From Stellaceae bacterium (GTDB lineage Bacteria > Pseudomonadota > Alphaproteobacteria > ATCC43930 > CGMCC-115725): a DNA stretch of 51,716 nucleotides. Positions 36,727-51,666 of this stretch are shown here, in pieces. The notes under the pieces were generated by a model, which saw only the letters and a program-made list of their open reading frames with translations, was not told where the DNA came from and did no database searches. The stretch's first letter is position 1, and each line of letters starts with the position of its first letter. The position numbers and the translations under genes were made by a program. The stretch spans positions 1 to 51,716 of the forward strand of contig DASWRT010000236.1 of the NCBI GenBank assembly GCA_036403035.1, written 5' to 3'.

Positions 36727-37893
36727 TCAGGAAAGTAACGAGGGACGGGCCGCCGCCCCCTGCCCTTGTCGCCCCAGCGGAATGATGGCGTCGCCGGGGA
36801 TCGACAGCAGCACCGGCTGACCGGCGTGGAAGGTTTCGCTGCGCACCTGCACCGTGCGCAGCTCGACACCTTCGACATCGACCACAATCTCCTGCGTGCG
36901 TCCGAGGAAATAGGCGGCGCGCACCGTCCCCTCGAAGAGGTTCTCGGCGCGGTCGCCCTGCCCCGGCGCGAGAATGCGGATCACCTCGGGATGGACGGCC
37001 AGCGTAGCCGCCTCGCCCTCGGCCGCGCCTGCCCATGCCCGCACGGCGAGCGTCAGCCCTCCGACGCGGACCCGGCACCGCGCCGGTGCTGCTGCGGCGG
37101 CATCGGCCGCACTGTCCGTCGCCGCGGCGGCGACGATGCTCCCCTGCAATAGATTGGCGGCGCCGACGAACTGCGCGACGAACTCCGTCCTGGGGCTGCG
37201 ATAGATCTCCTCCGGGGCGCCGATCTGTTCGATCCGCCCCTGCCGCATCACGACGACGCGATCCGACAGGGACATGGCTTCGACCTGATCGTGCGTGACG
37301 AGCACGAAGGTGGCGCCGATCAGCTTGTGGAGCCGGCCGATCTCGCGTCGCAGGTCCTCGCGAAGCGCGACGTCGAGGTTGCTCAGCGGCTCGTCGAGCA
37401 GCACCAAGCGCGGCCGGTATACGAGGGCGCGGGCGAGCGCGACGCGCTGGAGCTGCCCGCCGGAGAGCTGATGCGGGTCGCGGTCGGCGAAGCCGTCGAG
37501 GCGGCAGAGCTGGAGCGTCTCGTCGACACGGCGGCGGATCTCCGCTCCCGGCACCTTGCGCACCCGGAGCGGCAGCTCGATGTTCTTGCGGACCGACATA
37601 TGCGGCCACACGGCATAGCTCTGGAACACCATGCCGATGTCGCGCTTCTCCGGCGCGACGTGGGCGGAGGCCGCGGACAGCACGCTGCCGTCGAGCCGGA
37701 TCTCCCCGGCGTCCGGCCGCACGAAGCCGGCGATCGCCCGCAGCGTCGTCGTCTTGCCGCAGCCGGAAGGGCCGAGCAGCGTGATGAACTCCCCGCGCCC
37801 GATCGCGAGACTGCAATCGGTCAGCGCGACGACGCCGTCGTACTCCTTGCGGAGGCCGTCGAGTTCGAGGAAAGAGGCCTGCTGCGTCGCCAT
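36727..37893 (-). CDS. ABC transporter ATP-binding protein (Fe3+/polyamine PotA/FbpC type)
   Basis: Walker A is GPSGCGKTT, the signature is LSGGQLQR and Walker B is VLLDEP. A C-terminal TOBE-like regulatory domain is present. The start is at the internal ATG (MATQQASFLELDGL). Confidence 0.9.
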   Translation of the reverse strand: MATQQASFLELDGLRKEYDGVVALTDCSLAIGRGEFITLLGPSGCGKTTTLRAIAGFVRPDAGEIRLDGSVLSAASAHVAPEKRDIGMVFQSYAVWPHMSVRKNIELPLRVRKVPGAEIRRRVDETLQLCRLDGFADRDPHQLSGGQLQRVALARALVYRPRLVLLDEPLSNLDVALREDLRREIGRLHKLIGATFVLVTHDQVEAMSLSDRVVVMRQGRIEQIGAPEEIYRSPRTEFVAQFVGAANLLQGSIVAAAATDSAADAAAAAPARCRVRVGGLTLAVRAWAGAAEGEAATLAVHPEVIRILAPGQGDRAENLFEGTVRAAYFLGRTQEIVVDVEGVELRTVQVRSETFHAGQPVLLSIPGDAIIPLGRQGQGAAARPSLLS

Positions 37894-37895
37894 CG

Positions 37896-39596
37896 CTATA
37901 CCTTGATGCCCGTCAGGGAGACTTTGAGAAGCCGGCCCGCCACGGCGAGCCCGCCGAACGTGAGGACGAGGAGCAGGATCGCGGCCGCGGCCGTCTTCTC
38001 GTAGCTGCCGCCCTCGAAGTAGGTGAAGACGCGGACGGCGAGCGTCTGCGTCTCCGCGCTGTAGACCATCGCGGTCAAGGAGAACTCCTTCACCACGAAT
38101 AGGAAGACCAGGACGAAGGTGGTCAGCAGCCCGTTCTTCATCAGCGGCATCAGGACGTACCGCCATGCCTGGAGCTGCGAGCAGCCGACGATGTGCGCGG
38201 CCTCGGCGAGGCTCGTATCGATCTGCCCCCGTGCGGCCTCGCAGGTCTTCAGCGCGTAGGGAAGCATCACCAGCACGTAGCCGAAGGCGAGGATCCAGAG
38301 CGTACCGCCGAGGTGGAACGGGCTACCGTACCACGCCAGGATGACCAGCACGCCGGCAACGACGTGCGGCAGCCCGAGCGGGAACTCCGAGAGCTGCCGC
38401 AGGAACCGCTTGCCCAGCGTTTGCGGCCCGGACAGCACGATCGCGAGAACGCCGCCGAGCAGCGCCATCACGGCGCCGATCCCGACGGACAGAAGCGCGC
38501 TGTTCCAGACGGCCAGCCGGGTCTCCTGGTCGCTGAAGAGATAGGCGAAGTTGGCGAGCGTGAAGTTGTCCGGATCGAGGCCGCGCCACCACTGGTCCAT
38601 CAGCGCCGCCGCGAGCAGCGTCAGCACCGGAAGGCCGAGCGACAGCATCACCGGGATCAGCGCGAGCAGCATCATCGGGAAGCGCCAGCGGCCGAGATCG
38701 ATGATCTCGCTGCGTGCGCCCTTACCGGAAAGCACTGCGAACCTCGCCGACCCGGCGCCGCCGAGCAGGCGGGCCTGGAGCCAGAGCAGCAGCACGGTGA
38801 TCGCCACCAGCGGAAGGCTGAGCGCGACCGCCGCCGGCAGGTTGGGGTTCATGACGATGGTCGCGTACATCTCGGTCGTCATGAAGCGGAGCCCGACCGG
38901 TGACCCGAGCACCAGCGGCCCGGCCAGCATCGTCAGCGACTCCGCGACCGAGAACGCGACGCCGGCCATCACCGACGGCAGGATCGCGCCGAGCGTGATC
39001 CGGAAGAACACGGCGACCGGCGACAGGCCGCAGATGCGTCCCGCCTCCTCCAGTTCGGGGTTGATCTTGCTGAGGCCCGACAGCGTCGTGAAGAAGATCA
39101 GCGGATAGCTGTGGAGGACCGCGATGAAGACCACGCCCGAGAACGAATAGATGTCGTACAGCGGCGCGCCCAGCACGCCGTAGAACAGGACGTTGACCAG
39201 CCCGGAATTGCGCCCGAACAGAAAGACGTAGGCGATCGAGGTCAGCAGGTTCGGGATCACGAACGATACCGAGACGAGCAGCCCGATCGCATTGCGGCCC
39301 GGCAGGTTGGTCCGGGCGCACAGGCAGGCGAGCGGCACGCCGAGCACCGCCGCCGGCACGATCGACAGCGCCGCGGCGAGCAGAGAGTTGAGCAGCGGCT
39401 CGACGTTCTGCGCGCTCAGCAGCCGCGCGAATGCGGCGGGCTCGAAGATCCCGAGCCCGGCCGCAACCGGATAGCCGACGAAGCCGACGACGAGAGCGCC
39501 GATGACCAGGAGCGCCGGATTGGACGGTGCGAGGACCGGCCGCCAGCGCCGTGCGGCGACGAGAGGCGGCCGGGCCGGGTTGTCGGTGACGGCCAT
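37896..39596 (-). CDS. ABC transporter permease, duplicated two-domain type (FbpB/ThiP-like)
   Basis: About 12 helices in two repeated halves. The start was chosen at ATG (MAVTDNP), 4 nt downstream of the binding-protein stop. Confidence 0.85.
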   Translation of the reverse strand: MAVTDNPARPPLVAARRWRPVLAPSNPALLVIGALVVGFVGYPVAAGLGIFEPAAFARLLSAQNVEPLLNSLLAAALSIVPAAVLGVPLACLCARTNLPGRNAIGLLVSVSFVIPNLLTSIAYVFLFGRNSGLVNVLFYGVLGAPLYDIYSFSGVVFIAVLHSYPLIFFTTLSGLSKINPELEEAGRICGLSPVAVFFRITLGAILPSVMAGVAFSVAESLTMLAGPLVLGSPVGLRFMTTEMYATIVMNPNLPAAVALSLPLVAITVLLLWLQARLLGGAGSARFAVLSGKGARSEIIDLGRWRFPMMLLALIPVMLSLGLPVLTLLAAALMDQWWRGLDPDNFTLANFAYLFSDQETRLAVWNSALLSVGIGAVMALLGGVLAIVLSGPQTLGKRFLRQLSEFPLGLPHVVAGVLVILAWYGSPFHLGGTLWILAFGYVLVMLPYALKTCEAARGQIDTSLAEAAHIVGCSQLQAWRYVLMPLMKNGLLTTFVLVFLFVVKEFSLTAMVYSAETQTLAVRVFTYFEGGSYEKTAAAAILLLVLTFGGLAVAGRLLKVSLTGIKV

Positions 39597-39600
39597 CGCG

Positions 39601-40656
39601 TTACTTCCGCGCGGCCTGGGCGATCGCATTGAATTTGTCGAGCAGCTCCTGTCTCGGCAGGGGAGACGGCACCTCCTTGTAGGCGACCTTCAGCTCGCTG
39701 GCCGGCGGGAACCCGGACGGCCCCGCGACGTCGCCGCGGGTGGAGAACCAGCCGTACTTGCGATACAGCTCGCCTGCATCCTTCGAGAGCAGGAAGTCGA
39801 CGAGCAGCTCGGCGCCCTCGGGGTTCGGCGCCTCGGTGATGATGCTCGCGGTCAGCGGCGAGATGAACAGCACGCCGTCGCTGGCGATCGCCACCGGCGC
39901 GTGCTTCTGCATGATCTCGGACGTATACGATGTCACCGCGGTCGCGACCGGACGCTCGCCGTTGGCGACCGCCTGATCGATGCCGGGCGCGATCGCGATC
40001 ACCAGCGGGTCGTTGCGCATCAGCTTCTCGACCCACTCCCACCCGTTCTCATGGACCATCGCCTTGAGGAAGAGGAGCCCGGCGGCGCTTCGCGAAGGAT
40101 CGGAGATCGCGACCTTCGACTTCCACTTCGGGTCGGCAAGCTCGCTCCAGCTCTTCGGCGCGGCGTCCTTCTGCACCAGCCGCGAGTTGTACTCGATCGC
40201 GAGACCCCAGAAGGTGATGCCGTACCATTTCCCGTCCGGGTCCTTGTAGGCGGGGTCGACGGCGGAGAGATCGGCCGGCTTGTAGCCGCGCAGCACGTTG
40301 TCCTTGATCAGGTCGCCGACGAGATCGGTATCGCCCAGGGTCACGACGTCGACCGCAAACGACTTCGTCTTGCGTTCCGTCGTCAGCCGGCTGAAGACCT
40401 GTCCGGTGCCGCCGTAATACGAGTTGACCTCGATCCCCGTGCGCTTGGTGAATTCATCGATCAGGCCCTTGCGCAGCTCGTCGGGCGACACCGAGGTGTA
40501 CCACGTCACCTTGCCCTTCGCCCGCGCCGCCTCGATCCGCGGATCGGCGGCGGTCTGCGCACCTGCCGCTTGCGGAAGGATCAGGACCGCGGCGAGCGCC
40601 GCAACGGAGGCCAATACCGAAAGTCGACGTCCCAGGCGCGTTCTTTTTCCCTGCAT
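39601..40656 (-). CDS. ABC transporter substrate-binding protein (Fe3+/family 1 type)
   Basis: The ATG is preceded by AGGAGGA. The signal peptide is MQGKRTRLGRRLSVLASVAALAAVLILPQAAGA. Confidence 0.85.
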   Translation of the reverse strand: MQGKRTRLGRRLSVLASVAALAAVLILPQAAGAQTAADPRIEAARAKGKVTWYTSVSPDELRKGLIDEFTKRTGIEVNSYYGGTGQVFSRLTTERKTKSFAVDVVTLGDTDLVGDLIKDNVLRGYKPADLSAVDPAYKDPDGKWYGITFWGLAIEYNSRLVQKDAAPKSWSELADPKWKSKVAISDPSRSAAGLLFLKAMVHENGWEWVEKLMRNDPLVIAIAPGIDQAVANGERPVATAVTSYTSEIMQKHAPVAIASDGVLFISPLTASIITEAPNPEGAELLVDFLLSKDAGELYRKYGWFSTRGDVAGPSGFPPASELKVAYKEVPSPLPRQELLDKFNAIAQAARK

Positions 40657-40693
40657 GATCTTTCCTCCTGACGACGCGCCGTGGCGCGCGGGG

Positions 40694-40726
40694 GATTTTG
40701 GTATACCCGAACTGTGTACCAAAATC
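40694..40726. promoter_or_regulatory. composite GntR-type operator GATTTTGGTATACCC-N-GTGTACCAAAATC
   Basis: A perfect 10-bp inverted repeat joins gattttggta (40694-40703) and taccaaaatc (40717-40726). It lies 40-70 nt upstream of binding-protein start 40656 and has the same architecture as 49126-49152. Confidence 0.5.
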
Positions 40727-40852
40727 GGCATGACCTCAAAAGCCTGTTGTCGCGTGCACGGCGCCGTGGCCGGCCTCCCTCTCTCGTGTACCCGGCCGCG
40801 CACTGAGCGCGGGATCCCCCGGCGCAGCTTCGGCCGATTCCGGCGCCGCCGG

Positions 40853-42073
40853 TCATCCCTCCGCAGGCTGCGCCACGCTCGACGACGCCGTACTGAACAG
40901 CACGCCGATCACCAGGACATAGATGACGCACAGGATCAGCATGGTCGCTTGGAACCCGTGTTCGGCCAGCAGGTAGCCGCCGATGAACAGCAGGATTCCG
41001 TTGTAGACGCCGAAATTCCGTTCCATCGTCCCGAGCAGCCGCGGCCGCTGCTCGGGCGGGAGCGCGGCGAGGTTGATGTTCCCCATCGTCACCGGCCGCA
41101 CGCCGCCCGATCCGAGGCCAAGGAGCCCGATGGCGACGAGGCCGACTAGGAAATAGTCGATCCCGTGCAGCGAGAACCATTCGCTGAAGCCGAACAGGAG
41201 CATCGAGCCGACCATGCTGACGAGCGTGCCGGCGAGCAGCGCGGAAAGTCCGAAGCGCTTCAGGAAGGCGTTGCTGTAAAGCGCGGTGATGAACCCGGCC
41301 ATCGTGAAGAGGCCGAGCACGGACCCGAACAGATACGGGTCGACCTGAAGCTCGATGAAATAGAACGGCAGGATGCCGATGAAGGGCGCCAGCGTGAAGG
41401 CGCGGGACAGCGAGTAGAAATTCATCCAGAAAGTCTGGCTCGCGTCGAGCTGGAGCTTCGGCTTCCCGCCGCCGGCCGCGCCCGGCGCGGCCGCTTTCTT
41501 CTGAGGAGCCGGCTTCTTCTCCTCATGCACCATGAAGACCAGCAGCGACGAGGTCAGGCTGACGCACATCGACGCGTAGAAGGGCCAGTGCACGTGGTAA
41601 TCGTAGAGGATGCTGCCGAGGCTGCCCGCGACCAGCGTCGCGATGAACATCATGCTCTGCGACTTGGTCTGCACGCGCGTGAACAACTCGTTGCCGCCGC
41701 TCGCCGTGATGTTGCGCAGCACGCCCGCATCCATCGAGATCGCGAGGCTGAAGCCGCAGCCGCCGATGATCTGCGCGATCAGCACTTCCCAGAAATCGAC
41801 GCCGCCGAGACTGGTGCCGTGGATCAGCACTGCAAGCCCCACGACCTTCAGCATCTCGCCCGACGCGACCAGATCCTTCTGGCGCATGTAGGGCATCAGC
41901 GTGCTGCCGAGATTGGCCGTCACCGTCGTGATCAGCCCATAGACCGCGAGCAGGACGATGACGTTGTAGAGCCCCATTTCCACGTTGTAGAGGTGCAGAA
42001 ACAGCACCGGCAGATGGAAGTAGAGCCGCGAGATGACGCGGTAGCAGTAGAAAAGCCTGACGTCGCGCGACAC
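40853..42073 (-). CDS. MFS-like 12-helix transporter with a Lys/Pro/Ala-rich central loop
   Basis: Hydrophobic helices run throughout. GTG 42073 is preceded by GGGAGG at 9 nt. The longer form to 42274 has about 52 percent G/C at third positions over its first 42 codons by hand count, which looks atypical for coding sequence here. Confidence 0.7.
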   Translation of the reverse strand: MSRDVRLFYCYRVISRLYFHLPVLFLHLYNVEMGLYNVIVLLAVYGLITTVTANLGSTLMPYMRQKDLVASGEMLKVVGLAVLIHGTSLGGVDFWEVLIAQIIGGCGFSLAISMDAGVLRNITASGGNELFTRVQTKSQSMMFIATLVAGSLGSILYDYHVHWPFYASMCVSLTSSLLVFMVHEEKKPAPQKKAAAPGAAGGGKPKLQLDASQTFWMNFYSLSRAFTLAPFIGILPFYFIELQVDPYLFGSVLGLFTMAGFITALYSNAFLKRFGLSALLAGTLVSMVGSMLLFGFSEWFSLHGIDYFLVGLVAIGLLGLGSGGVRPVTMGNINLAALPPEQRPRLLGTMERNFGVYNGILLFIGGYLLAEHGFQATMLILCVIYVLVIGVLFSTASSSVAQPAEG

Positions 42074-42288
42074 GGCCGTCAGCCTCCCGCGCAAAGAAGA
42101 GGACGCGCGGAGGCCGCCGGCACGCAACGGCAGGATCGACGCCGCCGCAGAAGCGCCGGCATAGCCACCTGTCCGTATGCATCGCGGGAGTTCATCACCG
42201 CCAACTTCTCCCGGTCCGAAGACCGCATTGATGGCAACCGGCGCTGCGCGCGCTACTACGGATGGCGAGCGCACGCTATGGGCCGCCT

Positions 42289-43644
42289 TTATTCCGGGAC
42301 GACCTCGACGCTGGTCCCGGCGAAGCAGAAGCGCTCGGGAACGAGGTCATTCCCCCAATCGACCTTGATGCGCGCTGTAATGACCCGCACCGGCAATTGC
42401 CGGCGCGCGATCTCAGGCGGCGGGTCGACGACGTACTGCCCGACAGTGACCCGTCCCGCGCCGGCACGCATCGTCTCGATCGTGCCGTGCCACGCCTTGT
42501 CGCCGTACAGCATCCGCACCTTCACCCCGTGCCCGACTGCCAGCCGCCGCGTGTCCGCCTCGTCGAAGAACGCCTCGACCCACACGTTCTGGCAGCTCAC
42601 CACCTGGAAAATCGGCGCGTTCGCCGCCACGTTCTCGCCCGGCTGCCCGTCGATCGACCACACCACCCCGGCGTTCGGCGTCCGCACCGACGCCGTATGC
42701 TGCCCGTGGAGTTCGTTGCGCACACCCGCAAGCTGGGCGCGTGTCGTCTCGATCGTCCGCCGCAGATCCGACGCCTGCTCCTGAAGATCGACGATCTGGG
42801 TGCGTAGTTCGCGCAGCCGGCTCTCCGGCTCGCTCAGCGTGCGCGGACCATCGAGTTGCAGGCCGGCGTTATAGGCCTCCAGCCCGACGTCGAACTGCAC
42901 GACCCGGGCGCGCTGCGCACTGACTGCCGCGGCCGCTTCGCGCGCCGCGCCGACTGCGCGGTCGAGCGCCTGCCGGCTGGTGTTGCCGCGATCGAACAGT
43001 TGCTGCGTCCGCTTCACCTCGGCGTCGGCGACCTCAGCCGCCGCGATCGTCCGCTGCAGGTCCTGGTGGCTGGTGTCGAGCTGCGCCTTGAAATACTTGC
43101 CCGCAAGCTGCTGCTGCTTGTTGTTCTCGGAGCTGTATAGCCGGACGAGATCCTGCCGCTCGGCGATCCGGCGCTCGACGCCGGCCAATTGCTGCTCCTG
43201 GTTGGCGATACGCGCTGTCAGATCGTTTTCCTGAAGCTGGAACTGCGAGACCAGCGGGTTCTCGACGTCGGCGACGATCCGCCCGAGTTCCTCCGACGCG
43301 GCCACCACCTTGCCGACGCTCACTTCCGGCGACAGCGTCAGCTTGCCGGACACCGGCGCCCGCACCGCGACCACCGCCGTGTTGACGAATGCCTGGATGC
43401 TGTGCGGCGCCCGGATCGCGAACCAGTAATACAGGCACACCACGATCAGCAGCAGCGCCGGCAACAGCGCCCACAGCCGGCGCTGAAACAGCAGCCGCTT
43501 CACCGCGCCGAGCGGCTTGGCCAACCCCGATCGCGGCGGCTGGAAGTTCTGCGCAAGACGGCCGGCGGCACTGTCCTGCGGCGGCGATCCCGTCGTGGTG
43601 GTCCCCGAACTCAATCCCTTCCCCTCCGTCGACGCGGCAGCCAA
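42289..43644 (-). CDS. HlyD-family membrane fusion (periplasmic adaptor) protein
   Basis: One N-terminal TM (LWALLPALLLIVVCLYYWFAI), split lipoyl-like segments (VRAPVSGKL / VRTPNAGVV), a long coiled coil and a beta-barrel C-terminus. The start is uncertain (TTG 43644; TTG 43614 after GGAGG). Confidence 0.8.
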   Translation of the reverse strand: MAAASTEGKGLSSGTTTTGSPPQDSAAGRLAQNFQPPRSGLAKPLGAVKRLLFQRRLWALLPALLLIVVCLYYWFAIRAPHSIQAFVNTAVVAVRAPVSGKLTLSPEVSVGKVVAASEELGRIVADVENPLVSQFQLQENDLTARIANQEQQLAGVERRIAERQDLVRLYSSENNKQQQLAGKYFKAQLDTSHQDLQRTIAAAEVADAEVKRTQQLFDRGNTSRQALDRAVGAAREAAAAVSAQRARVVQFDVGLEAYNAGLQLDGPRTLSEPESRLRELRTQIVDLQEQASDLRRTIETTRAQLAGVRNELHGQHTASVRTPNAGVVWSIDGQPGENVAANAPIFQVVSCQNVWVEAFFDEADTRRLAVGHGVKVRMLYGDKAWHGTIETMRAGAGRVTVGQYVVDPPPEIARRQLPVRVITARIKVDWGNDLVPERFCFAGTSVEVVPE

Positions 43645-43765
43645 GTCGCCACGCGTGGCGACGCGCTACCGCTTGCGGCGCATACGGTTTCTTCACGACC
43701 GGCGACGCCGTGCGATACCGAGAGTCCGGTGAGACGCCTCCTGCCGGGCTCTCGGCCGAAAGTGG

Positions 43766-44422
43766 TCACGCCGCGCCCCGCGCCTCCGGCAGCCCGAGCG
43801 CCTGGGCGATCCGCGACCAATTCAGGTCGCCCTCGCGCAGCAGCTTCGGTTCGTCGATCACGGCGACGATCGTCGTCGACTTCGTCGTGTTCTGCGCGCC
43901 GCCCTCGACGATCAGGTCGACATCCTCGCCGATCTGGCCGAGGACGAAGTCCATGTCGACGAGCCGGTCGTCGGCCGTTCCGGAGATGTTCGCCGAGGTC
44001 AGCGCGAGCGGCTTCCCGGACTGAGCGACGATCGCGCGGGTTGCCGTGTTCGACACGCACGAGATCGCGATCGTTGTCTGGCCGCAGAGCATCGGCGTCC
44101 GGATCGCTTCGCGCGCCTCGGCGATGATGTTCAACGGCCCGGGCCAGAACCGCCCGGCGAGAATGTCGATCTGCTCGACCGCCGCCGGAGAGCCTGTCCC
44201 GTATTCCCGCCACTGCTCCGGCCGGTCGATGTAGAGGGTGAGCGGCTTGATGGCGGCGCGGCGCTTGATCGCGAACACCCGATCTATGGCGGCGAGGTTC
44301 CACGGATCGACCGCGAGCCCCATGTTCGTGTCGGTCGGAATGACCACGACGCCGCCGTTCCGCACGATCGAGGCGGCTCTGGCGATCCCCGCTTCGTCAG
44401 CGGCTACGATTTTGTTCCTCAT
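43766..44422 (-). CDS. stand-alone YrdC/TsaC (Sua5/YciO/YrdC) family protein
   Basis: The ATG is preceded by GAGGCGG. Motifs are VVIPTDTNMGLA, AIKRRAAIKPLTL (KxR) and LTSANISG (SxN). 218 aa with no Sua5 C-terminal domain. Confidence 0.85.
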   Translation of the reverse strand: MRNKIVAADEAGIARAASIVRNGGVVVIPTDTNMGLAVDPWNLAAIDRVFAIKRRAAIKPLTLYIDRPEQWREYGTGSPAAVEQIDILAGRFWPGPLNIIAEAREAIRTPMLCGQTTIAISCVSNTATRAIVAQSGKPLALTSANISGTADDRLVDMDFVLGQIGEDVDLIVEGGAQNTTKSTTIVAVIDEPKLLREGDLNWSRIAQALGLPEARGAA

Positions 44423-44444
44423 GTCCGCCTCGTTCGCCCAGGTG

Positions 44445-44879
44445 TCATGCCGACGCGCCGGCAAGCGCGGCGTCGATGCCTTTCCGGGCGATCTCCATGT
44501 CCTGCTTGAAGTAGCCGCCGCTGACGCCGACGGCGCCGATCGTCGCATCGCCGGTGCTTACCGGGTAGCCGCCGCCGACGAGCAGCACCTTCTCGGCATG
44601 CGGAAGCGCCAACCTCAGGTGATCGTCGGACGCGATGAAGTCGTGCAGCTTGTCGGTCGGCATGCCGAACGCCGCCGCCGTGGTGGCCTTGCTGATCGCC
44701 ACCTCGATCGCCGAGGTCATCGTGCCGTCGGCCCGCCCGAACGCAACGAGATGTCCGCCGGGATCGCAGACGGCGACCGCGGCCGGAACGCCGATCCTGG
44801 CGGCGTGGGCAAGCGCCTCCCGCACGATGCGGGAGGCGCTCTCGTAGGAGATCGTCTTCATTTCCAGATACGCCGTCAT
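44445..44879 (-). CDS. GlcG/HbpS-like (DUF336, haem-binding/degrading-like) protein
   Basis: The ATG is preceded by GGAGA. GGHLVAFGRADG, GGGYPV and IGAVGVSGG are typical of the family. Confidence 0.85.
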   Translation of the reverse strand: MTAYLEMKTISYESASRIVREALAHAARIGVPAAVAVCDPGGHLVAFGRADGTMTSAIEVAISKATTAAAFGMPTDKLHDFIASDDHLRLALPHAEKVLLVGGGYPVSTGDATIGAVGVSGGYFKQDMEIARKGIDAALAGASA

Positions 44880-44934
44880 GTCATCTCCGTTGCACGGGCG
44901 GGTCGCGCCGGCTCGGCCGACCCGGATTTCGCCG

Positions 44935-45960
44935 TCAGGCCGCCTCGCGCACCAGCCCCGGCAGACGGTCGACATAGTCGGGCCGGAACCGGTCGCGCGC
45001 CGCGCTGGAGCGGAACGAATAGGCCTTCAGCAGCCAGCGCTCCTTCTGCGCCTCCTGATCGCGGATCGCGCGCAGCTGGCGCGAATGCAGCCCCATCTTG
45101 TTGGGGAAGCAGAACAGGCCGCCGTTCTCGATGGTCGTCTCGACGCGCGGAGTCGCCTCGATCGCCGCACGCAGCGCGAGCACCGCCTCGGCGGCGCGGG
45201 CCGGGGAGTCGGCCGCCGCGATCGTGCGCTGATCATAGTACCGGAGGCACGTCTCCTCCTCGATGATCGTATGCTTTTCGGACTCCATATGGTTGCGGTT
45301 GCTGTCGCGGGACAGCAAATCGAACGGCGTCACGAACAGCGGCTCGGAGAGCGTCTGCCGGACATCCGCCGGCAGCCTGTCGAGCACGTGGCGGCCGTGC
45401 GTATAGGTCGTCACGATCTCGTTCTGAGGCGGGCAGCGCAGGCCGAGCAGCAGCAGATAATCGGCGCGGATCGGATGCGCGGTCCGGTCATTGTGGTAGT
45501 ACAGTTCGCCGTCGGTCTTCTGGGTCTGCGTGTTCGTGTACTTGGCCTGACTCAGCACGTCATGAAAGAAGTGCCCGTCGTTGCGCGTCTCGTAGGCCAA
45601 CGGCGGATTGTCCAACAGCTTCATCAATAATTGCAAAAACGCCTCGGAGACGAACGTCCGCTTCTTCAGCAGCTTATCGGCCACGGGATTCTCGTGGTCG
45701 AGATAAGGGACGGTTTCGTCGATCGGGCAATTCACTAAATAGTGGGCGTGGCGATCCTCGGCCCGGTCGGCCTTCATCCCCTCGACAATATCGTACAGGC
45801 CGTCCGGAAGGCTTCCCCACCGCGACAGCGAATCGATTTCGGCATCGAACGCCGCGAAGTCGGCATAGGGACTTACATTCACCTTCCCAAGCTCGGCCAA
45901 GAGCCTAAGTCGGTCGTCCTCCGTGAACCGGAAGGTCTTCGGCGTGCAAATCTCAGACAT
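44935..45960 (-). CDS. clavaminate-synthase-like Fe(II)/2-oxoglutarate oxygenase (AsnO/VioC-like amino acid hydroxylase family)
   Basis: The ATG is preceded by GGAGGA. YYHNDRTAHPIRADYLLLLGLR parallels FHNENAFHEHRPDFVMLLCLR of AsnO. The distal motif NKMGLHSR...ERWLLK is also present. GC content is lower than in neighbouring genes. Confidence 0.8.
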   Translation of the reverse strand: MSEICTPKTFRFTEDDRLRLLAELGKVNVSPYADFAAFDAEIDSLSRWGSLPDGLYDIVEGMKADRAEDRHAHYLVNCPIDETVPYLDHENPVADKLLKKRTFVSEAFLQLLMKLLDNPPLAYETRNDGHFFHDVLSQAKYTNTQTQKTDGELYYHNDRTAHPIRADYLLLLGLRCPPQNEIVTTYTHGRHVLDRLPADVRQTLSEPLFVTPFDLLSRDSNRNHMESEKHTIIEEETCLRYYDQRTIAAADSPARAAEAVLALRAAIEATPRVETTIENGGLFCFPNKMGLHSRQLRAIRDQEAQKERWLLKAYSFRSSAARDRFRPDYVDRLPGLVREAA

Positions 45961-46514
45961 GTCTTCCTCCGTTCGTGAGATCGCGACAGTTGCCGCAGAC
46001 GCTCGGAAAGCGCACTCCTGTCCGCGTTTATTCGCCACCGCCCGTGCTCCCAAGACGCTGTCGAACACCGGACGGTAGCCGGGCCGTTCGCGCACCAGCG
46101 GCGACGAGGCACTCTTTCCAGTACATTCGGTAGGTTACCGAACCCTGTCTGCGTGCTCAGAAAGTTACAGGACCTCAACACATCGTCAAGTCAAGCTTAT
46201 CGCTTTTTCAGTGTATTATCAAAAATTTCATCGATCAATCGGAAGAAAAGCCTCCTGAACACAAGAAAGGCGGCAAAAAAGCAAAGAACACTCCTCACTG
46301 CGTGAAGAAATATTCACGCACTGCTGATCGACAGTCGCAATGTTTGTTCGGCGATGACACGCCCGCGGCATGGTGAATGCGAAACAAGTCGCCGGAGTCG
46401 CGCCAGCCGGAGCGCCGACGCATGCCGCGGAATGTCAGACGATCGGTGAAGCCGTTCGGGAAAACCTCCTGCGTGTTCTCCGTGGTTACCGCCGGTCCTT
46501 AGCCCAAGCGCCGC

Positions 46515-47051
46515 CTATGCAGCCGACGAGACGCCGCCGCTTCCGCTGCCGCCGCCGCCGCTCCGTTCAGCCAGCCGCCGGCGCACATACGGCGTAAGTC
46601 CGCCCGAAGCGACGACCTGCCTGAGAAAATCGGGCAACGGCTGCGCCTTGAACCGTGCACCGTCCAACTCGATCTCGCCGGCGGACAGGTCGACCTTGAT
46701 CGAGGCGCCCTCGCGTGCCGCATCCGCCACCTCCGGACATGTCAGCACCGGAAGACCTTGATTCAGGGCGTTGCGGAAGAAGATGCGGGCGAAGCCGCGT
46801 GCAATGACGCAGGACACGCCGACGCCCTTCAGCGCCAGGACTGCGTGCTCGCGCGACGAGCCGCAGCCGAAATTGCGTCCGGCGACGATCACGTCGCCGG
46901 GCCGCACGCGGTCGGCGAAGTGCGGGTCGAGCGGCTCCATGCAATGCCGGCCGAGCACTGCCGGGTCGCGCGAGGCGAGATAGCGCGCGGGAATGATGAC
47001 GTCGGTGTCGACGTCGTCGCCGAATTTACGGACGGATGCGTCGATGATCAT
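46515..47051 (-). CDS. aconitase-family dehydratase small subunit (LeuD-like), second copy
   Basis: [13 protein letters not shown] motif. The start overlaps the large-subunit stop as ATGA. The C-terminal tail ERSGGGGSGSGGVSSAA is Gly/Ser-rich. Confidence 0.85.
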   Translation of the reverse strand: MIIDASVRKFGDDVDTDVIIPARYLASRDPAVLGRHCMEPLDPHFADRVRPGDVIVAGRNFGCGSSREHAVLALKGVGVSCVIARGFARIFFRNALNQGLPVLTCPEVADAAREGASIKVDLSAGEIELDGARFKAQPLPDFLRQVVASGGLTPYVRRRLAERSGGGGSGSGGVSSAA

Positions 47052-48322
47052 TGCCCCGTCACCTCGCTCGGATCGATCAATTCGCCCGCCACCGCCGACG
47101 CGGCGGCGACATAGGCATTGGCCAGATAGACGCGGGAACTCGCGGCGCCCATGCGTCCCCGGTAGTTGCGGTTGGTCGTCGCGACGGCGACCTGCTCCTC
47201 GCCGAGGACGCCCATATGCAGGCCGGCGCAGGCGCCGCAGGTCGACGGCGCGATGATCGCGCCGGCATCGAGGAGCGTTTCCAGCAGCCCTTCGCGCATC
47301 GCCTGCCGGTAGATCTCGCGCGTCGCCGGGACGACGACGCACCGGACGCCCTTGGCGATCTTGCGCCCGGCGAGGATCTCCGCGGCCTGACGGAGATCGG
47401 TCATGGTGCCGTTGGCGCAGTTGCCGATATACGCCTGATCGATGCGGACGCCGCTTGTCTCGGCGACCGGCGCGACGTTGTCCGGCGAATACGGCCGGGC
47501 GCAAAGCGGCGTCAGCGCCGAGGCGTCGAAGGAGAGCGACGAGGCGAAGGCGGCGTCCTCGTCCGAGCTGACCGCCGCCGCGAGCCCGGCGTCGCCATGC
47601 GTCGCGCGCGCCCAACTCCGCGTCGTCTCGTCCGGCGGCACGAAGCAGGTCTTCGCGCCGCCTTCGACGGCCATGTTGCAGAGCGCCATCCGCTCGTCGA
47701 GGTTGAGGCCGGCGATGGCGTCGCCGACGAACTCGATGCAGCGATACGTCCCGCCGTCGACGGTGATCTCGCCGAGCAGCCGCAGAATCAAGTCCTTGCC
47801 GGTGACGTACCGCCGCCGCTTCCCGCTGAAGGCGACGCGGATGGTCTCCGGCACCATGAACCACAGCTCGTCGAGCGCCATCGCCGCCGCGATGTCGGAC
47901 GATCCCATCCCCGTCCCGAGCGCGCCGAAGGCGCCGGCCGTGCAGGTGTGGGAGTCGGTGCCGATCACGAGGTCGCCCGGCCGCAGCAGCCCGCGTTCCG
48001 GAAGCAGCGTGTGCTCGATGCCCTCGCCGTTCACGAAGAGATGCGGGATCCCGTTCTCGGCGGCGAAGCGGGCCATCAGCGAGAGGAGCCCGGCGGCGGC
48101 GGGGTCCGGCGGCGGCGAGTAGTGGTCGCCGACCAGAACCACCTTGTCGGGAGCCGCAACCCGTTCCGCCCCCATCGCCTTGAGCTGATCGATCGCGAGC
48201 GGCCCGGTGATGTCGTGCAGCAGGATGCGGTCGACGCTCGCGGTGACGATCTCCCCTGCGTGTGTCCGCTCCTTGCCGGCATGAGCGGCGAAGATCTTTT
48301 CCGCCGCCGTCATTCCTCCCAT
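47048..48322 (-). CDS. aconitase-family dehydratase large subunit (archaeal-type LeuC/HacA-like), second copy
   Basis: Motifs are GTDSHT, CNMAVEGG, YIGNCANG, STCGACAG and TTNRNYRGRMG. At about 420 aa it is the short LeuC type. Confidence 0.88.
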   Translation of the reverse strand: MGGMTAAEKIFAAHAGKERTHAGEIVTASVDRILLHDITGPLAIDQLKAMGAERVAAPDKVVLVGDHYSPPPDPAAAGLLSLMARFAAENGIPHLFVNGEGIEHTLLPERGLLRPGDLVIGTDSHTCTAGAFGALGTGMGSSDIAAAMALDELWFMVPETIRVAFSGKRRRYVTGKDLILRLLGEITVDGGTYRCIEFVGDAIAGLNLDERMALCNMAVEGGAKTCFVPPDETTRSWARATHGDAGLAAAVSSDEDAAFASSLSFDASALTPLCARPYSPDNVAPVAETSGVRIDQAYIGNCANGTMTDLRQAAEILAGRKIAKGVRCVVVPATREIYRQAMREGLLETLLDAGAIIAPSTCGACAGLHMGVLGEEQVAVATTNRNYRGRMGAASSRVYLANAYVAAASAVAGELIDPSEVTGQ

Positions 48323-48421
48323 CGACCTATTCCCTTCCCGTTCGTCTTCTCGTTCCTCGCCTCTTCTCCTATCGGAGATGGGCGTCCCGTGCCGCCGTGC
48401 CGTCCGCCCGGCCGGCGGTGC

Positions 48422-49084
48422 TCATCCCGAGACCAGCGCGATGCGCCGTGCGCGCAGCCCGCGCCGTTCGGTGCGCAGCGTGTCGAGCAGGCGGTCGCGC
48501 GAGCGCGTCAAATGCGTGCGGATCTCATCGGCGGCGGCGTCGCCGCGTCCCTGCCGGATGAGGTTCAGCACCCCCTGGTGCTCGGCAAAGGCGCGCTCGC
48601 GTCCGCCGCGGCTGTTGATCTCCAGCCAGCGCGCCCGCGACAGCCGCGTCAGCACGTCTTCGAGCGACCGCACGAAGAAGGCGTTCCCCGACAGCCGCGC
48701 CAGCTCGACGTGGAACAGCGTCGCGATGCTGTAGGATTCCTCAACTGCCTGATCCTCCGGGATATGGATCATGCTCTCGATCGCGTCGATGTCGGTCCCG
48801 CTCGCGCGCTCCGCGGCAGCCCGGATTGCTGCGACTTCGATCACTTCCCGGTATTCGCAGGCCTGCTCGATCTCGGAGATGTCGATCGGGGCGACGACGT
48901 AGCTCCGTCCCTGCCGCTGCACCAGCCCTTCGGTCTCCAGCCGGAGCAAGGCGGCGCGGATCGGCGTGCGCGAGCTATCGAACCGCGTCTCCAGCAGACG
49001 CTCGCGGAGAGGCTCGCCCGGCATGAGCTCGACGGACAGGATCGCATCGCGAATGCTGTTGTATGTCGAGATGGTCTGCGACAA
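48422..49084 (-). CDS. GntR family (FadR/FCD subfamily) transcriptional regulator, paralogue 2
   Basis: The TTG start is preceded by GGGAGG. It is collinear with the regulator at 27671 (MSQ.., LETRF..SRTPIRAAL.RLETEGL.QR, FHVELARLSGN.FF.RSL.D..TRLSRARWLEI, RRGLRAR). Confidence 0.85.
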   Translation of the reverse strand: MSQTISTYNSIRDAILSVELMPGEPLRERLLETRFDSSRTPIRAALLRLETEGLVQRQGRSYVVAPIDISEIEQACEYREVIEVAAIRAAAERASGTDIDAIESMIHIPEDQAVEESYSIATLFHVELARLSGNAFFVRSLEDVLTRLSRARWLEINSRGGRERAFAEHQGVLNLIRQGRGDAAADEIRTHLTRSRDRLLDTLRTERRGLRARRIALVSG

Positions 49085-49305: not shown

Positions 49306-49592
49306 GTTGCACGATGCGAGCCTCCGGTGAAACCTTTGATCTCGGTCCGTCGCATTTCGGCAAGGCTGTGGCCGGCCGCATGAGACCGGCTCGATCAAAG
49401 GATTGACGGGCTTCGCCGCTCCGACACTTGCCGCCGGAGCCGGCGATGACGACTTGCCGGCACGTCGGGATATCCCCCGCGTGCAGGCGCGGCCGGCAAT
49501 GGATGAACCGGGCACGGCAGTAGACCGCTTCGGCCGTCGATGGAGGCCGGCATTGCCCCGGTCGGATGAACGACCCTGGAGTATTGTGTGAC

Positions 49593-51023: not shown

Positions 51024-51039
51024 GCGGAGGACGCCGACG

Positions 51040-51666
51040 ATGGAAAAATTCGTGAGGCTCACCGGCGTCGCGGCGCCGCTGCCGATGATCAACGTCGACA
51101 CCGACAAGGTCTTCCCGGCGCAGTTCATGGTGACGATCACCCGCAAGGGGCTCGGCCACCGGCTCTTCACCCGCTACCGCTACAACCCGGACGGGACGGA
51201 GAACCCGGACTTCGTGCTCAACAGGCCGGCCTACCGGCAGTCGAAGATCCTGGTCACCGGCGAGAATTTCGGCTGCGGCTCGTCGCGCGAGCACGCGCCG
51301 TGGTCGCTGCTCGATTTCGGCATCCGCTGCCTGATCGCGCCGTCCTTCGCCGACATCTTCTTCAACAACTGCTTCAAGAACGGCATCCTGCCGATCGTCC
51401 TGCCGCAGGCGGAGGTCGACCTGCTGATGGACGATGCGCAGCAGGGCGAGCACGGGGCCACGCTCACGATCGACCTGGAGAACCAGGAGATCGTGCGCCC
51501 GAACGGCGAGAAGATCCCGTTCGACGTCAACCCGTTCCGCAAGCACTGCCTGCTGAACGGCCTCGACGATGTCGGGCTCACGCTCCAGGATGCCGGCGCC
51601 ATCGAAGCCTTCGAGCGGCGGCACGACCGGCAGCAGCCCTGGCTGCCGCTGCGCGCGGCCGGGTGA
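51040..51666 (+). CDS. leuD: 3-isopropylmalate dehydratase small subunit
   Basis: [15 protein letters not shown] motif. It lies immediately downstream of leuC. Confidence 0.92.

What the first reader, a model, noticed from the sequence alone, without database searches (positions are those of the whole stretch)
40853..46514. Candidate undescribed export-coupled amino-acid tailoring module: CAS-like 2OG oxygenase, DUF336, stand-alone YrdC/TsaC-like, HlyD adaptor, MFS-like pump
Five co-directional minus-strand genes follow a roughly 0.5 kb AT-rich leader. Gaps are short within the first three genes (55 and 22 nt). I do not recognise this gene combination as a described pathway. The oxygenase belongs to the AsnO/VioC/clavaminate-synthase-like group, whose characterised members beta-hydroxylate free or tethered amino acids. 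YrdC/TsaC enzymes use ATP and bicarbonate to turn L-threonine, itself a beta-hydroxy amino acid, into a carbamoyl-adenylate. A beta-hydroxy amino acid made by the oxygenase would therefore be a plausible substrate for the accessory YrdC-like enzyme. The product could then be exported by the HlyD/MFS pair. The 5' end of the module is compositionally foreign: 54 of 100 bases are G+C at 45601-45700 and 40 of 100 at 46201-46300, against 68 of 100 at 43001-43100 (hand counts). That fits a later acquisition or a strongly regulated leader. The function is inference only.
Basis: partly seen in the sequence, partly recalled or inferred. Interest (0 to 1): 0.82.

Follow-up and report, generated by a model that had tools for sequence, protein, structure and literature searches.

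The report
Orphan oxygenase–LeuCD–YrdC–efflux gene cluster
The five genes are real, but they are only part of a larger, rare gene cluster found in many bacterial phyla. The cluster joins an amino-acid hydroxylase, leucine-pathway-type isomerases, extra copies of a tRNA-modification enzyme (TsaC/YrdC) and a dedicated pump, probably to make and export a small molecule nobody has yet identified.

Summary
All five minus-strand genes, the 55- and 22-nt gaps, the 554-nt AT-rich leader and the GC counts check out. The MFS gene starts at 42073, not 42274.

The oxygenase belongs to a small, distinct clade of clavaminate-synthase-like free-amino-acid hydroxylases. The YrdC gene is an accessory TsaC paralog. 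It keeps the ATP- and threonine-binding residues but has three family-specific active-site changes.

The proposed trio is not the conserved unit.
- DUF336 is absent from the 49 other oxygenase loci tested.
- The oxygenase's steadiest partner is a LeuC/LeuD pair (39 of 46 loci). In the window this pair lies just upstream (46515-48322), behind a GntR gene.
- The YrdC paralog follows the unusual MFS pump, with a HlyD adaptor in Gram-negatives, in 28 of 28 loci. It does so even in clusters that have no oxygenase.
- Most relatives also carry a PEBP protein and a second YrdC family. The window has neither.
- The window's DUF336-YrdC-HlyD-MFS block resembles that of a polyketide-like cluster type, so the locus is a mosaic.

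No Kae1-type transferase is present, and I found no paper on this cluster. My best reading is an undescribed biosynthesis-and-export locus. The chemistry is inferred, not shown.

The parts
40853..42073 (-). Unusual MFS pump ('MFSx'), 406 aa, GTG start
   Evidence: PF07690, 56 bits. The N-terminus matches the 98%-identical P0104. The family is small: 65 hits among 5.8 billion proteins. Start confirmed. A YrdC paralog lies beside it, or separated only by the HlyD gene, in 28 of 28 oxygenase-anchored loci that have it.
42289..43644 (-). HlyD/EmrA-type periplasmic adaptor, 451 aa (TTG start; exact start uncertain)
   Evidence: PF13437 and PF16576. TIGR00998 EmrA/EmrK scores 74.9 bits, below its cutoff. 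Orthologs at 34-55% identity in Gram-negative loci only.
43766..44422 (-). Stand-alone TsaC/YrdC paralog ('Y1'), 218 aa
   Evidence: PF01300, 132.8 bits. TIGR00057 scores 119.8 against a cutoff of 123.2. KxR, SAN and the S/T...R positions are kept, while AVRxPxH has become ISCVSN. N33, N98 and the other family invariants are listed.
44445..44879 (-). HbpS-like/DUF336 (GlcG-type) protein, 144 aa; not a conserved member of the cluster family
   Evidence: PF03928, 114.5 bits. Absent from the 49 other oxygenase loci fetched. Present in L055 and L056 (95% identity) and, at 49% identity, at the head of type D locus L057.
44935..45960 (-). Fe(II)/2-oxoglutarate oxygenase, 341 aa, of a distinct clade of the clavaminate-synthase-like amino-acid hydroxylases
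   Evidence: PF02668. H156-x-D158...H292 and R308 are invariant in 22 homologs. AF2 pLDDT 91. Foldseek top hits KDO1, AsnO, NapI and VioC at TM 0.72-0.79. 54 representative clusters at E<=1e-30 among 1.84 billion.
45961..46514 (.). 554-nt AT-rich intergenic leader, with palindrome CAGTGCGTGAA-N6-TTCACGCAGTG at 46296-46323
   Evidence: GC 56.5% overall, core about 40%. Same length and 98% identity in L055 and L056. No Rfam match. No sigma-70 consensus hit. Palindrome found; it is weak as a terminator.
46515..47051 (-). LeuD-like small subunit (archaeal/DmdB type), 178 aa; overlaps the LeuC-like stop by 4 nt
   Evidence: TIGR02087, 201.8 bits against a cutoff of 109. Coordinates.
47048..48322 (-). 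LeuC-like large subunit (HacA/archaeal IPMI family), 424 aa
   Evidence: NF001614, 543 bits against a cutoff of 385. The LeuC equivalog TIGR02083 is not reached (482 against 611). 36-40% identical to the LeuC-like genes of the Burkholderia, Enterobacterales and Xenorhabdus loci.
48422..49084 (-). GntR/FCD regulator, 220 aa, heading the LeuC/D-like genes
   Evidence: PF00392 and PF07729. A GntR gene in the same position in L006, L008, L012 and L026.
49566..51666 (+). Canonical leuC (49566-51023) and leuD (51040-51666), divergent from the GntR gene; probably housekeeping, possibly functionally linked
   Evidence: TIGR00170, 781 bits, and NF002458, 286 bits. 75-79% identical to LeuC of Rhodospirillales MAGs. 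Canonical-type LeuCD is the cluster-associated pair in Actinobacteria, Geobacillus, L026 and types B and C.
36727..40803 (-). ABC importer 49 nt downstream of the MFS gene (binding protein 39601-40803, fused permease 37896-39629, ATPase about 36727-37881); membership uncertain
   Evidence: Pfam. No NCBIfam cutoff reached; the best, weak hits are 2-aminoethylphosphonate/thiamine/polyamine-type. Also next to the cluster only in L055 and L006 (62-63% identity).

Best explanation
The five genes are the downstream half of a larger locus running at least from 40853 to 49084: GntR, LeuC-like, LeuD-like, leader, oxygenase, DUF336, YrdC paralog, HlyD, MFS. It belongs to a rare, horizontally scattered family of small-molecule biosynthesis-and-export clusters.

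Proposed mechanism (inferred):
1. LeuCD-type isomerase chemistry, helped by housekeeping or cluster-encoded LeuA, LeuB and aminotransferase functions, supplies a leucine-pathway-type skeleton, most likely a free amino acid.
2. The clavaminate-synthase-like oxygenase hydroxylates it, probably at C-beta, giving a threonine-like compound.
3. The TsaC-like paralog spends ATP, probably with CO2/bicarbonate, to form an N-carboxy(carbamoyl)-adenylate of an amino acid bound the way TsaC binds threonine.
4. No Kae1/TsaD-type transferase is encoded. The adenylate would therefore be resolved within the molecule (for example to a cyclic carbamate) or by an unidentified acceptor.
5. The product leaves through the MFS/HlyD pump and an outer-membrane channel encoded elsewhere.

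DUF336 is a lineage-specific passenger. It arrived with a YrdC-HlyD-MFS cassette of the kind seen in polyketide-like clusters.

Shown: gene content, family assignments, conserved residues and co-occurrence. Inferred: every chemical step and the direction of transport.
For: Family assignments.

Co-occurrence in 46 oxygenase-anchored loci spanning Alpha-, Beta- and Gammaproteobacteria, Actinomycetota, Bacillota, a cyanobacterium and Bdellovibrionota: LeuC 39, LeuD at least 32, PEBP 30, YrdC 29, MFSx 28, second YrdC family 18, HlyD 17 (Gram-negatives only).

The LeuCD partner is of three non-orthologous kinds. That argues the activity is needed, rather than one inherited gene pair.

Type B and type C relatives add a LeuA-family synthase. 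Type B also adds aminotransferases. This fits 2-oxoacid/alkylmalate chemistry feeding an amino acid.

The oxygenase has an intact HxD...H triad and the 2OG-binding Arg. Its model matches only free-L-amino-acid hydroxylases and desaturases at the top. In the RWLLK motif, Lys312 occupies the position of the Arg in the RWLHR (clavaminate synthase) and RFLSR (KDO1) motifs.

The YrdC paralog keeps KxR/SxN and the T/S/R threonine-contact positions (PMC10321239). All 16 members tested hit the TsaC model. The family-invariant changes N33, N98 and the loss of the Arg and His of AVRxPxH suggest altered specificity.

The pump family is tiny and specific to these clusters. Outer-membrane factor genes are present in several relatives.

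The oxygenase clade is rare. A close relative preserves the whole arrangement.
Against: - No product, transcript or enzyme activity is known.
- The oxygenase and the YrdC/pump cassette each occur without the other, so a direct hand-off between them is not required by the data.
- The window lacks PEBP and the second YrdC family that most type A loci have, so it may be a reduced or non-functional hybrid.
- No LeuA, LeuB or aminotransferase lies in the window's locus.
- The position where related enzymes have the alpha-carboxylate-binding Arg holds Lys, and the substrate could be a hydroxy-acid rather than an amino acid.
- GntR/LysR control and a neighbouring ABC importer also fit catabolism.
- The absence of any Kae1-like transferase departs from all characterised YrdC-type systems (PMC6594144).
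Confidence: 0.5

Rival explanations
1. The YrdC-HlyD-MFS block (plus DUF336 here) is an autonomous cassette that can be attached to unrelated pathways. Its YrdC paralog does not act on the oxygenase's product. It either serves the pump's cargo in a generic way, or it is a drug-insensitive spare TsaC that protects t6A synthesis from a threonine-like antimetabolite made by the cluster (target-replacement self-resistance).
For: - The cassette occurs with ACP/KS/KR/DH/AMP-ligase genes and no oxygenase or LeuCD in L052 and L057.
- The window's four cassette genes are closer to those loci (45-64% identity) than to type A loci (37-59%). They also share the type D order YrdC-HlyD-MFS.
- The YrdC paralog is almost a bona fide TsaC: 119.8 against a cutoff of 123.2, with some members scoring higher.
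- A type B locus carries an extra GAPDH gene, a pattern typical of self-resistance copies.
Against: - Enterobacterial loci carry up to three YrdC-family genes. One has lost KxR and SxN, and another is a 260-aa family with an insertion. That is hard to explain as spare TsaC.
- The family-invariant pocket changes point to a different substrate.
- Type C loci place YrdC paralogs among the enzymes, away from the pump.
Confidence: 0.2
2. A self-contained five-gene module in which the oxygenase makes a beta-hydroxy amino acid from a common amino acid, the YrdC-like enzyme carbamoyl-adenylates it, DUF336 assists, and HlyD/MFS exports it.
For: - Domain assignments and short gaps.
- The oxygenase's structural neighbours are beta- and gamma-hydroxylases of free amino acids.
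- Threonine-contact residues are kept in the YrdC paralog.
- Oxygenase and YrdC co-occur in 29 of 46 loci.
Against: - DUF336 is absent from the 49 other oxygenase loci tested.
- LeuCD, the oxygenase's commonest partner, is left out.
- The YrdC paralog follows the pump, not the oxygenase.
- A 554-nt leader after the LeuD-like gene does not mark a functional boundary in relatives, where LeuCD, PEBP, HlyD, oxygenase, YrdC and MFS lie in one run (L006, L008, L012, L020).
Confidence: 0.12
3. A catabolic or detoxification locus. Under GntR control, the LeuC/D-like hydratase and the oxygenase degrade an imported amino or hydroxy acid brought in by the adjacent ABC importer. The pump removes a toxic by-product.
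For: - GntR/FCD and LysR regulators are typical of catabolic operons.
- An ABC importer lies 49 nt downstream, and also next to the cluster in L006.
- The rest of the window is catabolic.
Against: - The importer is present in only 2 of more than 50 other loci and has no assignable specificity.
- The dedicated MFS/HlyD/outer-membrane-factor export sets, the LeuA-family synthases and aminotransferases in sister clusters, and plasmid carriage in Staphylococcus and Streptomyces look biosynthetic.
- A TsaC paralog has no obvious catabolic role.
Confidence: 0.1
4. The YrdC gene is simply the organism's housekeeping tsaC, lying by chance among unrelated genes.
For: It is near the TsaC equivalog cutoff. 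The rest of the genome is not available.
Against: - The same paralog sits in the same cluster across phyla and is always beside the special MFS.
- Some loci hold 2-3 copies.
- The motif AVRxPxH, shared by the four TsaC/Sua5 reference sequences compared, is lost.
Confidence: 0.03

Closest known systems
Clavaminate-synthase-like free-amino-acid hydroxylases (AsnO, VioC, OrfP, NapI, CmnC, KDO1/KDO5)
   Same: Same fold (TM 0.72-0.79), the HxD/E...H iron triad, the RWL 2-oxoglutarate Arg, and the R-x-DY motif.
   Different: Only 16-21% identity. No equivalog model is reached (42-57 bits against cutoffs of 345-450). Family-specific invariant motifs TRN(N/D)GDFF and TQTQKTD. Lys in place of the Arg that follows the RWL motif. 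Substrate unknown. Constant pairing with LeuCD is not, to my knowledge, described for any of these enzymes.
TsaC/Sua5 L-threonylcarbamoyl-AMP synthase (t6A pathway)
   Same: PF01300 fold. The KxR/SxN tetrad and the T/S/R threonine-contact positions are kept (PMC10321239). The TIGR00057 score is just under the cutoff.
   Different: It sits in a specialised-metabolism-like cluster beside a pump, not in a t6A context. There is no TsaD/Kae1 partner. The Arg and His of AVRxPxH are lost, and N33 and N98 are invariant. It co-occurs with a 260-aa second family and a degenerate paralog.
YrdC-like plus Kae1-like carbamoyltransferases (TobZ, HypF, CmcH/NodU family)
   Same: Use of a YrdC-type adenylate-forming domain in small-molecule or cofactor tailoring (PMC6594144).
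   Different: Those enzymes fuse or pair the YrdC-like domain with a Kae1-like transferase and start from carbamoyl phosphate. Here the protein is stand-alone and more TsaC-like than HypF-like (1 of 16 members has a weak HypF hit). No Kae1-like gene appears in any gene table.
YciO (TsaC paralog of unknown function)
   Same: A TsaC paralog that is not the t6A enzyme (PMC12506659).
   Different: YciO is the weakest of the ten PDB hits listed (41 bits). YciO clusters with rnm (PMC12506659), not with pumps or oxygenases.
EmrAB-TolC-type MFS tripartite efflux systems
   Same: An MFS pump plus a HlyD/EmrA-family adaptor. Outer-membrane-factor genes are present in several relatives.
   Different: The MFS is a small divergent family, and neither protein reaches a named family cutoff. 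A YrdC paralog is embedded in the operon. There is no outer-membrane-factor gene in the window.
Leucine-pathway-derived natural-product clusters (belactosin/cystargolide; Xenorhabdus/Photorhabdus ioc/leu beta-lactone). From my own recollection, not checked here.
   Same: Recruitment of LeuA/LeuCD-type enzymes to build a small bioactive acid.
   Different: Those pathways use ANL-type ligases or beta-lactone synthetases. As far as I know they have no clavaminate-synthase-like oxygenase, YrdC paralog, PEBP or this pump. No homology test was run.

Membership tests
Clavaminate-synthase-like Fe(II)/2OG amino-acid hydroxylases | TauD/TfdA-type double-stranded beta-helix fold | tested here: met
   PF02668, 30.7 bits against a cutoff of 27. 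AF2 pLDDT 91. Foldseek TM 0.72-0.79 to KDO1, AsnO and VioC.
Clavaminate-synthase-like Fe(II)/2OG amino-acid hydroxylases | HxD/E...H iron triad and the 2OG-binding Arg after the distal His | tested here: met
   H156, D158, H292 and R308 are invariant in 22 sequences. They align to the HTE, HGR and RWL motifs of NapI, CAS, KDO1 and OrfP.
Clavaminate-synthase-like Fe(II)/2OG amino-acid hydroxylases | Arg four residues after the 2OG Arg, which binds the substrate alpha-carboxylate (role recalled for VioC and AsnO) | tested here: inconclusive
   The position holds an invariant Lys312 (RWLLK) where clavaminate synthase has RWLHR and KDO1 has RFLSR. Lys could still bind a carboxylate.
AsnO / VioC / GntD / clavaminate synthase (named equivalogs) | Score at or above NCBIfam's equivalog cutoff | tested here: not met
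   57.2 against 345, 42.7 against 418.6 and 42.2 against 450.
TsaC/Sua5 threonylcarbamoyl-AMP synthase | PF01300 domain with the KxR/SxN tetrad | tested here: met
   132.8 bits. K53-R-R55 and S143-A-N145 are invariant in 16 family members.
TsaC/Sua5 threonylcarbamoyl-AMP synthase | Threonine-binding T33/S181/R195 (Pa-Sua5 numbering, PMC10321239) | tested here: met
   By alignment: PTDT (Ser in a few members), S182 and R196.
TsaC/Sua5 threonylcarbamoyl-AMP synthase | Equivalog score (TIGR00057 at or above 123.2) and the AVRxPxH motif | tested here: not met
   119.8 bits. The motif reads ISCVSN in the window and IS(V/L)VCN or VSVVHN in the family. Some relatives would pass the score cutoff (best E-value 3.6e-41).
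TsaC/Sua5 threonylcarbamoyl-AMP synthase | Being the genome's t6A enzyme (sole copy; complements a tsaC depletion) | not testable with these tools
   Only a 51.7-kb contig is available, and no second PF01300 gene lies in it. Homologous loci hold 2-3 paralogs each.
YrdC-like carbamoyltransferase systems (TobZ/HypF type) | A Kae1/TsaD-like transferase domain or partner | tested here: not met
   No such family in the window genes scanned or in the Pfam-annotated gene tables of 13 related loci.
LeuCD (3-isopropylmalate dehydratase) for 46515-48322 | Aconitase-family large and small subunits; LeuC/LeuD equivalog score | tested here: inconclusive
   Subfamily models are passed (NF001614, 543 against 385; TIGR02087, 202 against 109). 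Equivalogs are not (TIGR02083, 482 against 611; TIGR02084, 187.5 against 246). The substrate-loop motif reads YLAS, which I could not assign to a specificity class.
MFS/HlyD tripartite efflux | MFS pump, membrane-fusion adaptor and outer-membrane factor | tested here: inconclusive
   Pump and adaptor domains are present. There is no outer-membrane-factor gene in the window, although relatives have one (L001, L010, L014, L022, L024, L057, L058).
HbpS-like/DUF336 | PF03928 domain | tested here: met
   114.5 bits against a cutoff of 25. It is not a conserved member of the cluster family.

The most novel reading that the evidence does not exclude
Stand-alone TsaC/YrdC paralogs are a previously unrecognised class of metabolite-activating, adenylate-forming enzymes in specialised metabolism. 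They work without a Kae1-type transferase and are tied to a dedicated MFS/HlyD pump. In this cluster family they would convert a hydroxylated, leucine-pathway-derived amino or hydroxy acid into a reactive or cyclised product (a cyclic carbamate, N-carboxyanhydride or beta-lactone-type antimetabolite) that is exported at once.
Probability: 0.2. Interest if true: 0.85.

Novelty: new variant of a known kind. Interest (0 to 1): 0.62.

Why it matters
TsaC/Sua5 is a universal enzyme whose only established job is the first step of t6A tRNA modification. The role of its paralogs, such as YciO, is an open question (PMC12506659).

This cluster family shows at least three diverged TsaC-type lineages recruited, across phyla, into what looks like secreted-metabolite production. 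It gives a concrete, testable entry point. Several carriers are culturable genera or species (Providencia stuartii, Enterobacter mori, Burkholderia, Streptomyces, Geobacillus).

If the chemistry is confirmed, it would add a new way of using carbamoyl- or acyl-adenylates in natural-product biosynthesis. It would also assign a function to an orphan clade of amino-acid hydroxylases and to bacterial PEBP proteins. And it would show how leucine-pathway enzymes are repeatedly co-opted.

If instead the YrdC copy is a resistance paralog, it would point to a natural inhibitor of t6A synthesis.

Tried and rejected
- Riboswitch or sRNA in the leader: no Rfam hit at gathering threshold or at E<=1. The three available leader copies are 98% identical, so covariation cannot be tested.
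- Sigma-70 promoter scan: no hits.
- Terminator reading of the 46296-46323 palindrome: weak, z = -1.8.
- Genomic island: no tRNA in the window or in L055. An integrase lies beyond leuCD in L055 only. Gene-level GC3 is not deviant.
- Metallophore idea, from the neighbouring ABC importer: no iron-type assignment, and the importer is not conserved.
- LeuD specificity loop: the window reads YLAS, type A Gram-negative loci read EYLK, and neither could be assigned a specificity.
- E. coli genomes: no homologous locus.
- Literature: nine searches with combinations of YrdC/TsaC/Sua5/PF01300, aconitase/isopropylmalate, TauD, PEBP/YbhB, HlyD/MFS, isochorismatase and cupin found no description.
- Filing the oxygenase as AsnO, VioC, GntD or CS, and the YrdC gene as bona fide TsaC: rejected, because the equivalog cutoffs are not met.

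Full report
**1. What is in the sequence**

The window is 68% G+C. GC3-guided ORF calling and profile searches confirm five minus-strand genes.
- Oxygenase, 44935-45960, 341 aa, with a good GGAGG ribosome-binding site upstream.
- HbpS-like/DUF336, 44445-44879.
- YrdC-family protein, 43766-44422.
- HlyD-type adaptor, 42289-43644.
- MFS protein. Its real start is GTG 42073 (406 aa), not 42274.

The gaps run 55, 22, 121 and 215 nt.

Upstream of the 554-nt leader, on the same strand, lie a LeuD-like gene (46515-47051), a LeuC-like gene (47048-48322) and a GntR/FCD regulator (48422-49084). Divergent from these is a canonical leuC-leuD pair (49566-51666). Downstream, 49 nt after the MFS gene, is an ABC importer.

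The canonical LeuC is 75-79% identical to LeuC proteins of Rhodospirillales, Stellaceae and Azospirillaceae MAGs. The contig therefore comes from an uncultured alphaproteobacterium.

**2. The oxygenase**

Homologs at 35-50% identity form a small family. There are 86 hits in the 5.8-billion-protein collection and 54 representative clusters at E<=1e-30 among 1.84 billion. The carriers are scattered: Paraburkholderia, Burkholderia, Trinickia, Xenorhabdus, Providencia, Enterobacter, Erwinia, Dickeya, Streptomyces, Streptacidiphilus, Rathayibacter, Geobacillus, Trichodesmium and others.

Twenty-two sequences share H156-x-D158, H292 and R308, plus the family-specific motifs TRN(N/D)GDFF and TQTQKTD.

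An AlphaFold model (pLDDT 91) matches KDO1 lysine 3-hydroxylase, AsnO, NapI, OrfP, VioC and CmnC at TM 0.72-0.79 and 16-21% identity. All of these act on free L-amino acids. No named equivalog is reached.

**3. Neighbourhoods**

I fetched 44 loci from one-genome-per-species contigs and further loci by exact-protein look-up. I then clustered all ORFs.

Among 46 oxygenase-anchored loci, many of them truncated, the recurring families are:

| Family | Loci |
|---|---|
| LeuC | 39 |
| LeuD | at least 32 |
| PEBP (YbhB/YbcL type) | 30 |
| YrdC | 29 |
| The same unusual MFS | 28 |
| A second, 260-aa YrdC family | 18 |
| HlyD adaptor (Gram-negatives only) | 17 |
| LysR | 16 |

DUF336 has no hit in the 49 other oxygenase loci fetched by then. 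The proteins that carried no Pfam annotation in the first gene tables are orthologs of the window's HlyD and MFS.

The conserved unit is therefore oxygenase + LeuCD + YrdC + MFS (+ HlyD) + PEBP. It is not oxygenase + DUF336 + YrdC.

**4. Several architectures**

- *Type A.* This is the window's type, also found in Burkholderiales, Enterobacterales, Streptomyces, Rathayibacter and Geobacillus. Its content is as described in section 3.
- *Type B.* L038, L040-L042 and L048, a Staphylococcus epidermidis plasmid and a Streptomyces plasmid. These combine the oxygenase and LeuCD with a LeuA-family synthase, an isochorismatase-family hydrolase, a cupin, an ordinary MFS, a 640-aa FAD/NAD(P)-binding protein and aminotransferases. 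They have no YrdC.
- *Type C.* L053 and L054, found through the MFS. These have citrate synthases, a LeuA-like synthase, two YrdC paralogs, an amidohydrolase, a CADD/heme-oxygenase-like protein, LeuCD, HlyD and the special MFS. L053 also has a PEBP gene. They have no oxygenase.
- *Type D.* L052 (Skermanella stibiiresistens) and L057. These have ACP, thioesterase, ketosynthases, reductases, a dehydratase and an AMP-ligase, followed by YrdC-HlyD-MFS(-OMF). L057 is headed by a DUF336 gene.

The window's DUF336, YrdC, HlyD and MFS are closer to type D (49, 45, 48-55 and 62-64% identity) than to type A loci of Burkholderia (37-39, 44-45 and 55-59% for YrdC, HlyD and MFS). They also share the type D order YrdC-HlyD-MFS, not the type A order HlyD-(oxygenase)-YrdC-MFS.

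The window's locus is thus a mosaic. An oxygenase/LeuCD-like part has been joined to a type D-like export cassette, and PEBP and the second YrdC family are missing.

**5. LeuCD**

The window's cluster pair is of the HacA/archaeal-IPMI and LeuD/DmdB subfamilies. It passes the subfamily cutoffs but not the LeuC/LeuD equivalog cutoffs. From the translation, it carries Cys residues in IGNCANG and CGAC segments. I recall these as the aconitase-family [4Fe-4S] ligand motifs.

The LeuCD next to the oxygenase is of this kind in Burkholderia, Enterobacterales and Xenorhabdus. It is of the canonical kind in Actinobacteria, Geobacillus, L026 and types B and C. Both kinds are present in the window, L006, L008 and L012.

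Non-orthologous replacement implies that the isomerase activity itself is what the oxygenase needs. In some Streptomyces loci the YrdC gene overlaps the stop of leuD by 4 nt.

Together with the LeuA-family and aminotransferase genes of type B, this points to leucine-pathway-type 2-oxoacid/alkylmalate chemistry feeding the oxygenase. That is an inference.

**6. The YrdC paralogs**

The window's protein scores 119.8 bits on TIGR00057, against a cutoff of 123.2. All 16 family members tested hit that model, some more strongly.

Alignment to Sua5 and TsaC shows that KxR, SxN and the threonine-contact positions (T33/S181/R195 of Pa-Sua5, PMC10321239) are kept. The AVRxPxH segment has become IS(V/C)V(C/S)N, and N33 and N98 are family invariants. 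The Sua5 rows come from the alignments printed.

The 260-aa second family keeps KxR and SAN and has an insertion of about 25 residues. A third, 197-aa enterobacterial paralog has lost both motifs.

The first paralog lies beside the special MFS, or separated from it only by the HlyD gene, in all 28 oxygenase-anchored loci that have the MFS. It lies in the same gene run in all 5 MFS-anchored loci.

No Kae1/TsaD-like gene appears in any annotated gene table, whereas every characterised YrdC-type system has one (PMC6594144). This is an accessory enzyme family. Its substrate is probably an amino acid held as threonine is held, and its adenylate has no known acceptor.

**7. The leader**

It has the same length and is 98% identical in two close relatives. 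There is no Rfam match and no sigma-70 consensus. It contains an 11-nt-arm palindrome at 46296-46323, which is weak as a terminator and is imperfectly conserved in L055.

I read the region as a promoter/operator separating a GntR-LeuCD-like transcript from the oxygenase-to-MFS transcript. This is inferred only.

**8. Explanation and rivals**

Best explanation (confidence 0.5): a biosynthesis-and-export locus for an unidentified small molecule.
- LeuCD-type chemistry provides the skeleton.
- The oxygenase hydroxylates it.
- The TsaC-like enzyme makes a carbamoyl- or acyl-adenylate that is resolved without a Kae1 partner.
- MFS/HlyD exports the product.

Rivals:
- An autonomous YrdC-pump cassette, including a spare-TsaC self-resistance reading (0.2).
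- A catabolic or detoxification locus (0.1).
- Chance adjacency of a housekeeping tsaC (0.03).

**9. Comparison with what is known, and novelty**

Each part belongs to a known superfamily, but none reaches a named functional family. I found no description of the combination. I rate it a new variant of a known kind: an orphan biosynthetic cluster with export.

Its unusual feature is stand-alone TsaC paralogs tied to a pump. Interest is 0.62. The comparative signal is strong and the TsaC-paralog angle is new and testable, but the product and the chemistry are entirely inferred, and the window's copy is a reduced mosaic.

Noticed in passing
L050 (Staphylococcus epidermidis plasmid pML7049-5, NZ_CP118847.1), locus 6137-18648: A type B sister cluster sits on a staphylococcal plasmid: hisC, LysR, LeuA-family, isochorismatase-family hydrolase, oxygenase homolog, cupin, MFS, leuC, leuD, FAD/NAD(P)-binding protein and an aromatic aminotransferase. 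It ends with an extra type I GAPDH gene, which may be a self-resistance copy.
   Followed up: partly
L053 3188-11236; L054 3356-11215: A sister cluster in which the 2OG oxygenase is absent and a CADD/heme-oxygenase-like protein, an amidohydrolase, citrate synthases, a LeuA-like synthase, a nitroreductase and two YrdC paralogs accompany LeuCD, HlyD and the same MFS.
   Followed up: partly
L052 1-10910 (Skermanella stibiiresistens SB22); L057 1-12609: A polyketide- or fatty-acid-like cluster (ACP, thioesterase, ketosynthases, reductases, ApeI-like dehydratase, AMP-ligase) ends in the same YrdC-HlyD-MFS cassette. L057 adds an outer-membrane factor and starts with a DUF336 gene.
   Followed up: partly
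window 46296-46323: Palindrome CAGTGCGTGAA-N6-TTCACGCAGTG in the leader, possibly an operator. Its right arm differs at two positions in the close relative L055.
   Followed up: partly
window 36144-36539 (-): A 132-aa ORF with only the LysR-type HTH domain and no substrate-binding domain. It looks like a truncated regulator.
   Followed up: no
L055 1-1262: In the close relative, a phage-type integrase (with DUF6538) lies about 3 kb beyond the canonical leuCD. There is no tRNA nearby. The window ends before this point.
   Followed up: partly
window 36727-40803 (-); L006 14571-17203: An ABC importer of unassignable specificity follows the MFS gene by 49 nt. A 62-63% identical importer lies next to the cluster in one betaproteobacterial-type MAG. 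It is not seen in the other loci.
   Followed up: partly
L004 726-1319; L013 2665-3270 and equivalents in Enterobacterales: A third YrdC paralog (197 aa), next to the LysR gene, has lost both the KxR and SxN motifs. It is probably non-catalytic.
   Followed up: partly
window 1-36000: The rest of the contig carries ordinary catabolic and transport genes: a GH3 glycosidase, a PhyH dioxygenase, a TPP enzyme, BKACE, an HPPD-like protein, PhaC, a proline-racemase-like protein, an aldehyde dehydrogenase, an RraA-like protein, two family III CoA-transferases and an HMGL-like lyase. None recurs next to the cluster elsewhere, apart from the ABC importer and the HMGL-like and CoA-transferase genes, which reappear downstream of the cluster in L055.
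   Followed up: partly
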